This document shows positions 56,326-57,825 of a stretch of DNA of 64,000 nt, piece after piece. Position 1 is the stretch's first letter. Each line of letters starts with the position of its first letter. The notes beneath the pieces are model-generated. The model worked only from the letters and a program-made list of their open reading frames with translations, had not been told where the DNA came from and searched no databases. Source of the stretch: an uncultured Bacilli bacterium (GTDB lineage: Bacteria > Bacillota_I > Bacilli_A > RF39 > UBA660); the NCBI GenBank assembly GCA_910587725.1, contig CAJUNG010000001.1:1698-65697 (forward strand), given 5' to 3'. The translations under genes and the position numbers were made by a program.

Positions 56326-57825
56326 ATGACTGAAGAAGAAATTGCACAAATTTATCGTGATATGGAATTAGAACTCATTTCTTCCATGAAAAGAAATTTA
56401 TCAAGGCACCTCAAAGAAGAAGACAAAACAGGCTTCAAATTTACTCAATGGCAATCAGAAACACTAAAGGAAATGAAACGATTCCAAAGAGAAAATAAAT
56501 CTATTATTAGAGATTACACAAAGGGATTTGATAAAGAGATTCAAAAAATACTGCAAGATGAACTTAAACAGGGTTCAAAAAAAGAATTCAAAAGATATAA
56601 GAAAGTACTTGGAGACAAATTCAAAGAAAGTGATAACTTAAGAGAGAGCTTTTTCAAGATAAATGATAGAAAAATAAAAAGTTTGATAAAATCAGTTAAT
56701 AATGATTTGGGTAGTGCAAATACTGCTTGTTTCAGAATGATAAACGACCAGTATAGAAGAACAGTTGTTAAAGCAGTAATGTTTAGCAACCATGGTGTTG
56801 TATCTCCTAAAAAGGCAATCGACATGGCAACAAAGGAATTCCTGAATACAGGCATTAACTGTATTGAATACAAAAATGGCAGAAGAGTAAATATTGCTTC
56901 TTATTCACAAATGGCGGTTAGGACTGCAAACACAAGAGCACAATTGATTGGCGAAGGTCAATTTAGAGAACAGCTAGGAGAACACCTAGTGAAAATAACT
57001 TCTCATGGTGGAACTTGTAAACTTTGTTCAAAATGGGAAGGGAAAATATTAATTGATGATGTTTATTCTGGTGGTAGCAAAAAAGATGGTAAATATCCTC
57101 TTTTGAGTACTGCTATGGAGCAAGGATTGTTTCATCCAAACTGCAGGCATGGTCTTCCGACGTATTATCCAGAACTTGACGGAATTGAATTTGATGAGGA
57201 CGGACCAACAGAGGAAACACTAAAACAATATCAAGAAGATTTGAATTACATTAATCAAAATATATACAGATTTCAAAGATTAGAGGCTGGTTCATTAGAT
57301 GAAGATAACATTCAAAAATATTCGATATTAAGAGAAAAATGGGAAAATAAGAAAACTCTATTTACTGATAATTCTTTGACTTATGATGAACGTTATGCTA
57401 TAAATACTTACATAGGAGCAGAATCATATAATATCAATGAAAAGTTGCGATTAAATTTGAATTTAACTAAAGAAGATAAGACGTTTGTCAATAATTTAGA
57501 TAACGCTTTGAATAAAATGGAAAACTATGACGGAACAGTCAAAAGAAGTATATGGATTGATTCAGATGATATTGATTACTTTTTGAAAGATTTTAAAGAG
57601 GGAAAAGACATCAATTTAAAATCATATGTAAGTACTACAAAAGGAAAAATATACAATCCAGAAGCAAGAGTCCAGATGAAAATAAAAAGCAAAACAGGGA
57701 AAAATATTACAAAATATAACGAAGCTGAACAAGAAATTTTATTTAGACGCAATACAAAATTTAAAGTAATAAAAATTGATACTACAGATGACTACTTCAT
57801 TAAAATCTATATGGAGGAAAAATAG
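56326..57825 (+). CDS. phage minor head protein (SPP1 gp7 / Mu F-like) fused to C-terminal ADP-ribosyltransferase toxin domain
   Basis: The N-terminal 330 aa are gp7-like (CFRMINDQYRRTVVKAV, MAVRTANTRAQL). The C-terminal region (nt 57328-57825) carries the ART triad: NTYIGAESYNINEKLR (Arg motif), YVSTTKG (STS) and EAEQEILF (Q/ExE). Confidence 0.8.
   Translation: MTEEEIAQIYRDMELELISSMKRNLSRHLKEEDKTGFKFTQWQSETLKEMKRFQRENKSIIRDYTKGFDKEIQKILQDELKQGSKKEFKRYKKVLGDKFKESDNLRESFFKINDRKIKSLIKSVNNDLGSANTACFRMINDQYRRTVVKAVMFSNHGVVSPKKAIDMATKEFLNTGINCIEYKNGRRVNIASYSQMAVRTANTRAQLIGEGQFREQLGEHLVKITSHGGTCKLCSKWEGKILIDDVYSGGSKKDGKYPLLSTAMEQGLFHPNCRHGLPTYYPELDGIEFDEDGPTEETLKQYQEDLNYINQNIYRFQRLEAGSLDEDNIQKYSILREKWENKKTLFTDNSLTYDERYAINTYIGAESYNINEKLRLNLNLTKEDKTFVNNLDNALNKMENYDGTVKRSIWIDSDDIDYFLKDFKEGKDINLKSYVSTTKGKIYNPEARVQMKIKSKTGKNITKYNEAEQEILFRRNTKFKVIKIDTTDDYFIKIYMEEK

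What the first reader, a model, noticed from the sequence alone, without database searches (positions are those of the whole stretch)
56326..57825. Capsid-internal minor head protein (SPP1 gp7-like) fused to an ADP-ribosyltransferase toxin domain
The N-terminal ~330 aa are a gp7/Mu-F-type head morphogenesis domain, which in SPP1 is packaged via the portal and ejected with the DNA. The last ~165 aa (nt 57328-57825) carry the complete ART catalytic triad of C3/iota-type toxins: an aromatic-Arg motif (YNINEKLR), an STS motif (STT) and an ARTT-loop EQE. The arrangement implies an effector delivered into the host cell at infection, acting either on host targets or against defense. The target and role are unknown.
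Basis: partly seen in the sequence, partly recalled or inferred. Interest (0 to 1): 0.6.

Follow-up and report, generated by a model that had tools for sequence, protein, structure and literature searches.

The report
Phage head protein carrying ADP-ribosyltransferase toxin
This prophage gene fuses a portal-associated minor head protein (MuF) to an ADP-ribosylating toxin domain; it belongs to the published "MuF polymorphic toxin" family, so it is a new example and not a new kind of system.

Summary
ORF 56326-57825 (499 aa) lies directly after the portal gene of an integrated siphovirus-type prophage. It has an N-terminal MuF-type head domain (Pfam PF06152, E=8e-44) and a C-terminal ADP-ribosyltransferase (ART) domain (PF03496, E=3e-10). 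The ART model has pLDDT 93, and its best structural match is the arginine-ART Tre1 (TM 0.78). R407, S436-T-T and E468-Q-E470 are conserved in homologues. One detail is wrong: the catalytic arginine is R407 (TVKRS, strand beta1), not the R of YNINEKLR, which sits in an upstream helix.

The architecture is already published as the MuF polymorphic toxins (Zhang 2012; Jamet 2017; Iyer 2022). Bxa is an experimentally studied ART member (2024), and the EFV toxin is the MuF-ART that Jamet 2017 cites as studied.

New here:
- In collinear phages the swapped cassette runs from about 57322 to about 58024. It holds the ART domain plus a translationally coupled 62-aa ORF (57827-58015).
- That small ORF belongs to an uncharacterised family (F-x3-R-W...V-x-G...T-x-E-E). 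The family is present in 82 of 86 loci with this ART clade and in 0 of 31 MuF loci with other C-termini. I read it as the cognate immunity protein.

Capsid packaging, injection and the target remain inferred.

The parts
56326..57825 (+). MuF-ART gene (499 aa): a minor head protein with a C-terminal toxin domain
   Evidence: ORF confirmed. PF06152 and PF03496 both match. phrog_581 'minor head protein' matches aa 4-481, E=1e-70. An identical protein, P0001, is in GCA_950096875.1.
56335..57237 (+). MuF2 / Phage_min_cap2 domain (aa 4-304), the presumed capsid-targeting and portal-binding module
   Evidence: PF06152, E=8.3e-44. It is 68-90% identical to relatives whose C-termini are unrelated. The AlphaFold2 model is low-confidence here.
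57226..57321 (+). Conserved pre-toxin helix (aa 301-332, QYQEDLNYINQNIYRFQRLEAGSLDEDNIQKY). It is the last segment shared with relatives that carry other toxins, so it marks the left recombination junction
   Evidence: Protein alignment and sliding identity. DNA similarity to collinear phages ends at 57308-57354.
57358..57822 (+). ADP-ribosyltransferase domain (aa 345-499), R-S-E class with an E-x-E motif
   Evidence: PF03496. AlphaFold2 pLDDT 93.4. Foldseek matches Tre1, ExoS, CDTa, Ia and C3. The profile search against solved structures gives Tre1 at 3e-15.
57544..57546 (+). R407, predicted catalytic / NAD-binding arginine on strand beta1 (TVKRS)
   Evidence: Aligned to the Y-R-G arginine of Tre1 and Vis and the Y-R arginine of Lmo0066 and SpvB. 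Kept in 49/52 homologues and invariant in 90 representatives. Lies in strand E75-84 of the model. Codon checked.
57631..57639 (+). S436-T437-T438, the STS-type motif
   Evidence: S436 is kept in 51/52 homologues. Aligned to the STS motif of Tre1 and Vis. Lies in strand E110-113 of the model.
57727..57735 (+). E468-Q469-E470, the E-x-E motif (ARTT loop and catalytic glutamate)
   Evidence: E468 is kept in 47/52 and E470 in 51/52 homologues. Both are invariant in 90 diverse representatives. Aligned to E-A-E of Tre1 and Vis.
57827..58015 (+). 62-aa ORF, candidate cognate immunity protein (family motif F8-x3-R12-W13...V21-x-G23...[ST]31-x-E33-E34)
   Evidence: Its ATG is 1 nt after the toxin stop, with a GGAGG at 57813-57817. 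It lies inside the swapped cassette. The family is found in 82/86 ART-clade loci and 0/31 other MuF loci, with 53 distinct sequences. Its divergence tracks the ART domain (partial r=0.60) more than the MuF domain (0.24). It matches phrog_12755, unknown function, E=1.4e-4 and no Pfam family.
57322..58024 (+). Exchangeable toxin-immunity cassette. Edges are approximate: left 57308-57354, right 58006-58028
   Evidence: blastn of the window against collinear phages L004, L005, L006, L010 and L013 gives 70-85% identity on both sides and none in between. The alternative cassettes carry CdiA_C, an HExxH type, an unknown type, or a second ART type.
54837..56324 (+). Portal gene directly upstream, the expected docking partner of the MuF domain
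   Evidence: phrog_533 portal protein, E=3.4e-77. The position of muf immediately after the portal gene is the family's defining context.
58029..58102 (+). tRNA-like gene (ARAGORN: Gly, anticodon ACC) at the right edge of the cassette. It belongs to the conserved backbone, not to the cassette
   Evidence: ARAGORN. Rfam RF00005, 45.6 bits. Conserved in collinear phages, with compensatory T-stem changes.

Best explanation
The gene encodes a MuF polymorphic toxin of a temperate siphovirus-type prophage.

The N-terminal MuF2 domain is the conserved 'delivery' module. By analogy with SPP1 gp7 it binds the portal and is built into the procapsid in a few copies.

The C-terminal 155 aa form an active R-S-E ADP-ribosyltransferase with an E-x-E motif. 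It is most likely an arginine-specific mono-ART acting on bacterial cytoplasmic proteins.

The 62-aa ORF that starts 1 nt after the toxin stop is its cognate immunity protein. It is made together with the toxin and keeps the enzyme silent in the producing cell, most plausibly by occluding the active site.

Toxin domain and immunity gene form one roughly 700-bp cassette. Recombination at a conserved pre-toxin helix on the left and at the tRNA on the right exchanges this cassette between related phages.

After assembly the toxin travels in the head and enters the next host cell with the DNA, where it ADP-ribosylates host proteins early in infection.

Shown here: the domain identities, the fold, the conservation of the catalytic residues, the cassette boundaries, and the genetic linkage of the small ORF.

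Inferred: enzymatic activity, arginine specificity, the immunity function and its mechanism, packaging, injection, and the target.
For: - Domains and fold.
- Catalytic residues conserved: R407, S436, E468 and E470 in 52 close and 90 distant homologues.
- The ART clade is tied to the phage head: 85 of 90 long representatives carry it on PF04233 or PF06152, and one on a portal. It is always C-terminal. 269 viral contigs carry it.
- Polymorphic-toxin behaviour: the N-terminus is up to 90% identical to relatives with unrelated C-termini, and the DNA breakpoints are sharp.
- Immunity candidate: coupled expression signals; presence in 82/86 against 0/31 loci; divergence that follows the ART domain. 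More distant ART subclades have their own small ORF, and two of the other cassette types (HExxH, unknown) also carry one.
- Genomic context: terminase, portal, MuF-ART, scaffold, major head, with integrase and repressor upstream.
- Precedent: Bxa, a MuF-ART, is bactericidal, modifies arginines, and is blocked by the small protein Bsi, which was modelled in its active site. The family and its delivery hypothesis are described in Jamet 2017 and Iyer 2022.
- From memory, not verified here: that E-x-E predicts arginine specificity and Q-x-E predicts asparagine, and that Tre1 targets FtsZ.
Against: - No experiment shows that any MuF toxin is packaged or injected. Papers from 2024-2025 still call the role unknown.
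- The MuF domain model is low-confidence, so portal binding is by homology only.
- CdiA_C-type cassettes in sister phages have no small ORF, so a downstream immunity gene is not universal in this phage group.
- No separate promoter for the small ORF was detected. That leaves unexplained how a lysogen would be protected against incoming toxin, if it is protected at all.
- Linkage and correlated divergence could come from physical proximity alone.
Confidence: 0.7

Rival explanations
1. The ART is a lysis-released exotoxin or fitness factor, not an injected effector. It is freed when induced lysogens lyse and acts outside the phage life cycle, on neighbouring bacteria or on cells of the animal host, to the benefit of the surviving lysogen population. 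In that case the MuF fusion only ensures late co-expression or virion association.
For: Bxa, the best-studied MuF-ART, was reported to ADP-ribosylate epithelial non-muscle myosin II and to promote gut colonisation by the lysogen. The window's relatives come from gut and animal-associated metagenomes and MAGs. MuF toxins are confined to temperate phages. The domain has the fold of classical exotoxins: C3, iota, CDTa and ExoS.
Against: There is no signal peptide, translocation domain or receptor-binding domain; the protein is only MuF plus ART. The closest solved relative is an antibacterial effector, not a eukaryote-directed toxin. The ART clade is almost exclusively attached to head or portal domains, which argues that residence in the head matters. 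A free 57-kDa protein has no evident route into Gram-positive neighbours.
Confidence: 0.15
2. The domain acts mainly as an NAD+ glycohydrolase, or on a non-protein acceptor such as RNA or DNA, rather than as a protein-arginine ART.
For: ART-fold toxins that only hydrolyse NAD(P) exist, and that study's phylogeny of NADase families marks MuF-associated toxins (Tne5 paper). ARTs that modify mRNA or tRNA are listed by title or abstract in the literature search. Fold alone does not fix the acceptor.
Against: The full canonical R-S-ExE constellation is conserved, whereas Tne5 lacks a bona fide ART triad. The nearest characterised relatives named in the structure searches (Vis, Lmo0066, SpvB, VIP2) are deposited as ARTs or toxins, and Vis is named an arginine ART. 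Bxa modifies arginines.
Confidence: 0.1
3. The ART domain serves the virion itself, for example by modifying a phage structural protein during head maturation, and the small ORF is an assembly factor rather than an immunity protein.
For: The gene sits between portal and scaffold in the morphogenesis operon. Some databases label the family 'head maturation protease' or 'head morphogenesis'.
Against: Near-identical phage backbones replace the domain with unrelated modules (CdiA_C tRNase-type, HExxH, a second ART), and each of the HExxH and unknown-type cassettes seen brings its own small ORF. An essential morphogenetic enzyme would not be interchangeable in this way. The 'protease' label has no support in Pfam.
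Confidence: 0.04

Closest known systems
MuF polymorphic toxins (Zhang et al. 2012, Biol Direct; Jamet et al. 2017, BMC Biol, PMC5576092)
   Same: The gene lies immediately downstream of the portal gene in a temperate phage of a low-GC Gram-positive-type host. It has a conserved MuF N-terminus (PF06152, their 'MuF2'), a variable C-terminal toxin, and a small ORF under 150 aa directly downstream. ART domains made up 14% of their 191 toxins. All of these features were met here.
   Different: Nothing categorical. This work adds nucleotide-level cassette boundaries, the conserved pre-toxin helix of this MuF2 subgroup, and a defined small-ORF family linked to one ART clade.
Bxa / Bsi / BAH of the Bacteroides stercoris prophage (J Biol Chem 2024, PMC11699363)
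   Same: [quoted passage not shown] The ART is bactericidal and modifies arginines. An adjacent small non-enzymatic immunity protein binds the toxin and was modelled in its active site.
   Different: Bxa is much larger (869 aa, with a middle domain) and comes from Bacteroidales. It also has an ADP-ribosylhydrolase immunity protein, BAH. No hydrolase is adjacent to the toxin here: the small ORF has no Pfam match and the next gene is the scaffold, and none was seen among the 20 prophage ORFs scanned against PHROGs. Only 4 prophage ORFs were scanned against Pfam, so this is not exhaustive.
Tre1-Tri1 (Serratia proteamaculans T6SS ART effector and its immunity protein; PDB 6dre/6drh)
   Same: Tre1 is the closest solved structure and sequence relative of the ART domain: phmmer 1.8e-5, profile 3.3e-15, Foldseek E=1.4e-11, TM 0.78, 25% identity. 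It shares the R, S and E-x-E positions. It is deposited as a toxin/immunity pair.
   Different: Tre1 is delivered on a PAAR/T6SS scaffold, not a phage head protein. From memory, Tri1 is a larger protein with an ADP-ribosylhydrolase domain and Tre1 targets FtsZ. Nothing here shows that the phage domain shares that target.
Phage T4 Alt, a head-packaged, injected ADP-ribosyltransferase
   Same: Conceptual precedent: an ART carried inside the capsid and injected with the DNA, modifying host proteins at the start of infection. Alt-like 'RNA polymerase ADP-ribosyltransferase' proteins appear among the structural matches.
   Different: By my recollection, Alt is a stand-alone protein targeted to the prohead by a capsid-targeting sequence. 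T4 is a virulent myovirus, Alt is not a MuF fusion, and it is not known to need an immunity protein.
EFV toxin of Enterococcus faecalis V583 (Q838U8)
   Same: [quoted passage not shown] Jamet 2017 cites it as the only MuF toxin studied at that time.
   Different: EFV has a PF04233 (MuF1) N-terminus. I could not compare the sequences directly.

Membership tests
MuF polymorphic toxin family (Jamet 2017) | N-terminal MuF-superfamily domain (PF04233, PF06152, MuF3 or MuF4) | tested here: met
   PF06152, aa 4-304, E=8.3e-44, 150 bits against a cut-off of 26.3.
MuF polymorphic toxin family (Jamet 2017) | Gene located immediately downstream of the phage portal gene in the head / DNA-packaging module | tested here: met
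   The portal gene (phrog_533, E=3.4e-77) ends at 56324 and the gene starts at 56326. Terminase lies upstream, scaffold and major head downstream.
MuF polymorphic toxin family (Jamet 2017) | Conserved N-terminus combined with variable, unrelated C-terminal toxin domains among close relatives (polymorphism) | tested here: met
   Relatives 68-90% identical over aa 1-330 are 11-18% identical over aa 345-499 and carry PF18451 CdiA_C, an HExxH type, a second ART type or unknown domains. The DNA breakpoints are sharp.
MuF polymorphic toxin family (Jamet 2017) | Encoded by a temperate phage or prophage | tested here: met
   Tyrosine integrase at 38861-40012 next to host tRNA genes, an HTH repressor and an ImmA-like protease. 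The contig is a 135-kb bacterial MAG contig.
MuF polymorphic toxin family (Jamet 2017) | Small ORF (<150 aa) directly downstream that acts as the immunity protein | tested here: inconclusive
   A 62-aa coupled ORF is present and strictly linked to the ART clade (82/86 against 0/31 loci).
MuF polymorphic toxin family (Jamet 2017) | C-terminal domain is toxic / enzymatically active | not testable with these tools
   Only conservation of the catalytic residues and the fold are available.
R-S-E clade ADP-ribosyltransferases (PF03496, C3/VIP2/Tre1-like) | ART split beta-sheet fold | tested here: met
   AlphaFold2 pLDDT 93.4. 142 PDB matches with E<=1e-3; the 50 listed are all ARTs, with Tre1 at TM 0.78.
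R-S-E clade ADP-ribosyltransferases (PF03496, C3/VIP2/Tre1-like) | Arg on beta1, Ser-Thr-Ser/Thr on beta2, catalytic Glu (E/Q-x-E) at the ARTT loop / beta5 | tested here: met
   R407, S436-T-T and E468-Q-E470 align to the corresponding residues of Tre1, Vis, Lmo0066 and SpvB. They are conserved and lie on the expected strands of the model.
R-S-E clade ADP-ribosyltransferases (PF03496, C3/VIP2/Tre1-like) | NAD+-dependent transfer of ADP-ribose to a defined acceptor | not testable with these tools
   A biochemical assay is required.
SPP1 gp7 / Mu gpF family in the strict sense (PF04233 Phage_Mu_F) | Match to PF04233 | tested here: not met
   PF04233 is not among the Pfam hits at E<=1; the match is to the sister family PF06152. 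Both are placed in one superfamily by Jamet 2017. The same ART clade also occurs on PF04233 carriers, 56 of 90.
SPP1 gp7 / Mu gpF family in the strict sense (PF04233 Phage_Mu_F) | Portal-bound, present in a few copies per capsid, released on DNA ejection | not testable with these tools
   Needs virion proteomics or cryo-EM.

The most novel reading that the evidence does not exclude
The 62-aa ORF may found an uncharacterised immunity family, specific to head-borne ARTs, that neutralises the enzyme by inserting its invariant F-x3-R-W arginine into the active site as a pseudo-substrate. Under this reading the MuF-ART is injected with the DNA and transiently ADP-ribosylates an essential host protein on arginine (for example the division protein FtsZ, which from memory is the Tre1 target). 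This would stall the newly infected cell and so influence the lysis-lysogeny outcome or exclude competing phages. The locus would then give a compact, sequence-defined pair with which to test the long-standing but unproven idea that MuF toxins are capsid-delivered.
Probability: 0.2. Interest if true: 0.55.

Novelty: new member of a known kind. Interest (0 to 1): 0.3.

Why it matters
The architecture is described in the literature and even spelled out in public phage annotations, so the finding does not change what is known. Its value is practical. The biological role of MuF toxins is still open: whether they are packaged, whether they are injected, and what they hit. This locus offers a small, clean example for testing that, with a 155-aa ART that has a textbook catalytic constellation and a coupled 62-aa partner. 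That partner belongs to a family linked to the ART clade in 82 of 86 loci. Sister phages share the same backbone but carry different cassettes, so they work as natural swap controls. The small-ORF family (phrog_12755, function unknown) can now be annotated as a candidate ART immunity protein, and the 'head maturation protease' labels on this gene family can be corrected.

Tried and rejected
1. Word-indexed protein search with the isolated ART domain. It returned only 6 short hits and was too insensitive. I replaced it with the exhaustive HMMER scan.
2. The search for related loci in viral contigs with the single ART sequence. It found nothing. The alignment-based scan worked.
3. AlphaFold2 of a linker-fused ART + small ORF construct with a paired alignment, to test active-site occlusion.
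4. Full-length AlphaFold2 model. The MuF part has pLDDT 40-65, so I did not search its fold.
5. Model coordinates are not exposed. Residue geometry was therefore inferred from secondary-structure positions and sequence alignments only.
6. Independent promoter for the small ORF. There is no excess of promoter-like sites over shuffles.
7. A link between the ART and the adjacent unusual tRNA (decoy or target idea). Rejected as cassette-specific, because the tRNA lies outside the swapped segment and is kept with CdiA_C, HExxH and unknown cassettes.
8. The small-ORF family in the Lactobacillus phages phi jlb1 and Lj771. It is absent there; they have a different small ORF.
9. Pfam on the small ORFs of the three cassette types that have one: no family.
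10. A second, enzymatic immunity protein (ADP-ribosylhydrolase or macro, as with Bxa-BAH). None lies next to the toxin and none was seen among the prophage ORFs scanned. Not every ORF of the prophage was scanned.
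Full report
**1. Observation**

The ORF is exactly as described: 56326..57825 on the + strand, ATG start, TAG stop, 499 aa.

- Pfam places PF06152 Phage_min_cap2 on aa 4-304 (E=8.3e-44) and PF03496 ADPrib_exo_Tox on aa 337-487 (E=3e-10; 7e-11 for the isolated domain). Both are well above the curated cut-offs.
- PHROGs put the whole protein in phrog_581 'minor head protein' (aa 4-481, E=1e-70). The fusion is therefore already part of that family's profile.
- The best solved relative by sequence is 6dre_B/6drh_B (E about 2e-5). 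Foldseek later describes this entry as an 'ADP-ribosyltransferase toxin/immunity pair'. From memory this is Tre1-Tri1 of Serratia.

**2. Fold and catalytic residues**

An AlphaFold2 model of aa 326-499, built with 42 homologues, is confident (pLDDT 93.4, pTM 0.84).

- Foldseek against the PDB gives 142 matches at E<=1e-3. The 50 listed are all ARTs: Tre1 (E=1.4e-11, TM 0.78), then ExoS/ExoT, XopAI, CDTa, iota Ia and C3.
- A profile of the domain finds Tre1 (3e-15), Vis, Lmo0066, SpvB, XopAI, VIP2, HopU1, CDTa and Ia.
- In the alignments printed residue by residue (Tre1, Vis, Lmo0066, SpvB), the beta1 arginine ('Y-R-G' in Tre1 and Vis, 'Y-R' in the other two) falls on R407 (TVKRS). The STS motif falls on S436-T-T and E-x-E on E468-Q-E470.
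- The model agrees: R407 lies in strand E75-84, S436 in E110-113 and E470 at the start of E145-148. R375 of YNINEKLR closes a helix (model residue = aa - 325).
- Conservation among 52 close ART-type homologues: R407 49/52, S436 51/52, E468 47/52, E470 51/52, R375 43/52.
- Among 90 representatives that share at most 50% identity, both arginines and both glutamates are invariant.

The E-x-E version of the motif predicts arginine specificity. That rule is textbook knowledge I recalled and did not test.

**3. Context**

The gene lies in an integrated temperate phage. The relevant features are:

- a tyrosine integrase at 38861-40012 (-), next to host tRNA-Ser and tRNA-Gly genes;
- an ImmA-like protease and an HTH repressor;
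- RecT;
- a large terminase (53423-54832) and the portal (54837-56324, phrog_533, E=3e-77);
- the MuF-ART gene, a 62-aa ORF and a tRNA;
- scaffold, major head, adaptor and major tail genes.

An identical protein sits on a 135-kb contig of assembly GCA_950096875.1. The nearest genomic loci are MAGs labelled 'uncultured Bacilli' and 'Tenericutes'.

**4. It is a polymorphic toxin**

Among the best 120 of 3460 homologues, the N-terminal ~330 aa stay 50-90% identical while the C-terminus switches between several types: this ART (52 proteins), a second ART type (P0004), PF18451 CdiA_C, and unrecognised domains.

- Identity to seven such relatives is 0.68-0.90 over aa 1-330 but 0.11-0.18 over aa 345-499.
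- The last shared segment is a conserved helix, QYQxxLNxINxNIxxxxRLExGSLDxENIxKY (aa ~301-332).
- At DNA level, five collinear phages (L004, L005, L006, L010, L013) are 70-85% identical to the window on both sides. They lose all similarity between 57308-57354 and 58006-58028.

The replaced segment therefore contains the ART domain plus the 62-aa ORF and nothing else. It ends where the tRNA begins.

**5. The ART clade is head-specific**

- An exhaustive HMMER scan of 1.84 billion representatives finds 1432 proteins at E<=1e-3. In the 150 listed, the domain is always at the C-terminus.
- Of 90 long representatives, 56 carry PF04233 (MuF1), 29 carry PF06152 (MuF2) and one carries a portal domain.
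- 269 viral contigs contain the clade.
- The viral structure library returns many 'minor capsid protein', 'head morphogenesis' and portal fusions, including one annotated 'ADP-ribosyltransferase domain and MuF-like fusion protein'.

**6. The small ORF**

ORF 57827-58015 starts 1 nt after the toxin stop, and its GGAGG (57813-57817) lies inside the toxin's last codons.

I seeded an HMM from the window ORF and three obvious homologues and iterated it over six-frame translations of all fetched loci.

- It finds exactly one member, on the same strand, in 82 of 86 loci with this ART clade and in 0 of 31 MuF loci with other C-termini. Where the ORFs were called, they start -37 to +10 nt from the toxin stop.
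- The four exceptions are one locus cut by a contig end and three copies of a 205-aa ART ORF followed by a different 115-aa partner.
- The family has 53 distinct sequences and a conserved core: F8-x3-R12-W13...V21-x-G23...[ST]31-x-E33-E34.
- Its pairwise divergence follows the ART domain (r=0.84; partial r=0.60 controlling for MuF) more than the MuF domain of the same gene (partial r=0.24).
- It has no Pfam family and only a weak match to phrog_12755, of unknown function.
- Two of the other cassette types (HExxH, unknown) bring their own unrelated 74-aa ORFs.
- Distant ART subclades in the Lactobacillus phages phi jlb1 and Lj771 have yet another small ORF.

This is the signature of a toxin-immunity pair. 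It implies that the ART is harmful to the bacterium that makes it, so its targets are most likely bacterial.

**7. Comparison with what is known**

- The architecture was described by Zhang et al. 2012 and defined as the 'MuF polymorphic toxin' family by Jamet et al. 2017. In that paper PF06152 is 'MuF2', the gene follows the portal gene, and the toxins occur only in temperate phages. ART domains made up 14% of the 191 toxins, and 89% were followed by a small ORF. The authors hypothesise delivery with the DNA.
- Iyer et al. 2022 describe Alt/VIP2-type ARTs fused to MuF as head-packaged effectors.
- Bxa of a Bacteroides prophage is an experimentally studied MuF-ART. It kills E. coli, modifies arginines promiscuously, and is neutralised by the small protein Bsi and by the hydrolase BAH. 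Bsi binds Bxa and was modelled in its active site.
- Papers from 2024-2025 still state that the biological role of MuF toxins is unknown and that packaging is presumed.

The present locus meets every sequence-level criterion of the family. It is a new member, not a new kind.

**8. Mechanism and rivals**

Best explanation (0.7): a head-borne, arginine-type ART with a co-expressed immunity protein, on an exchangeable cassette, delivered with the DNA.

Rivals:

- A lysis-released exotoxin or fitness factor, as proposed for Bxa on epithelial cells (0.15).
- An NADase or a non-protein acceptor (0.1; compare Tne5).
- A virion-maturation enzyme (0.04), which is contradicted by the interchangeability of the domain.

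No separate promoter for the small ORF was detected, and the complex could not be modelled.

**9. Verdict**

Interest is modest (0.3). What this work adds is the cassette map and a tightly linked candidate immunity family, which make the open delivery question testable on a compact pair.

Noticed in passing
window 58029-58102 (+); also L002 4710-4783, L004 4751-4824, L005 4783-4856, L006 4764-4837, L010 5610-5683, L013 5773-5846: A phage tRNA-like gene sits directly after the toxin cassette. Rfam scores it as tRNA at 45.6 bits and ARAGORN calls it tRNA-Gly with anticodon ACC, which from memory is very unusual for bacteria. The anticodon loop is non-canonical and variable: G-U-ACC-U-U here, C-A-ACC-U-U in L010 and L013 (A at position 33), and GCC in L006. 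Position 37 is U in all phage copies, there is a G1-A72 mismatch, and the CCA end is encoded. Compensatory T-stem changes show the RNA is under structural selection. Its function is unknown; a decoy or replacement against anticodon nucleases, or a recombination anchor for cassette exchange, are possibilities.
   Followed up: partly
L004 4545-4750, L005 4578-4782, L010 5509-5610: Sister phages whose MuF protein ends in a CdiA_C (PF18451) domain have no small ORF after the toxin. In L004 and L005 the cassette instead carries an extra tRNA-Ser(UGA) between the toxin and the conserved tRNA-Gly. Either the immunity gene lies elsewhere, or a tRNA takes the place of a protein immunity for what I recall to be a tRNase-type toxin.
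   Followed up: partly
window 57810-57821 and 57826-57837: There is an exact 12-nt direct repeat, TATGGAGGAAAA, straddling the toxin stop codon. As a result the toxin ends ...YMEEK* and the small ORF begins MEEKK. The first copy supplies the GGAGG ribosome-binding site for the small ORF.
   Followed up: partly
L053, L056, L063 (ART ORF about 2863-3480, then a 115-aa ORF): Three viral contigs carry this ART clade as a 205-aa ORF by my ORF calling, possibly stand-alone or split from MuF. It is followed by an unrelated 115-aa ORF instead of the F-x3-R-W family, which may be an alternative partner or immunity protein.
   Followed up: no
window 56326-57825; phrog_595; NC_010179 and NC_024206 annotations: Several databases label this MuF-ART family 'head maturation protease' (phrog_595; RefSeq entries for Lj771 and phi jlb1; some actinophage records). 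Pfam detects no protease domain, so the label looks like a propagated mis-annotation.
   Followed up: partly
window 53423-54832 and 54837-56324: The large terminase and the portal protein get no Pfam hit at E<=1. Only PHROGs recognise them (terminase weakly, E about 1e-6; portal strongly). This is a divergent packaging module.
   Followed up: no
window 3720-9062, 28865-31852, 32751-37406 (+): There are very large ORFs (1780, 995 and 1551 aa) in the presumed host part of the window, upstream of the prophage. I did not examine them.
   Followed up: no
window 58126-58153 (+): A terminator-like hairpin followed by a T-run lies between the tRNA and the scaffold gene, inside the late operon. It may separate or attenuate the portal-MuF-toxin-tRNA transcript from the capsid genes.
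   Followed up: no
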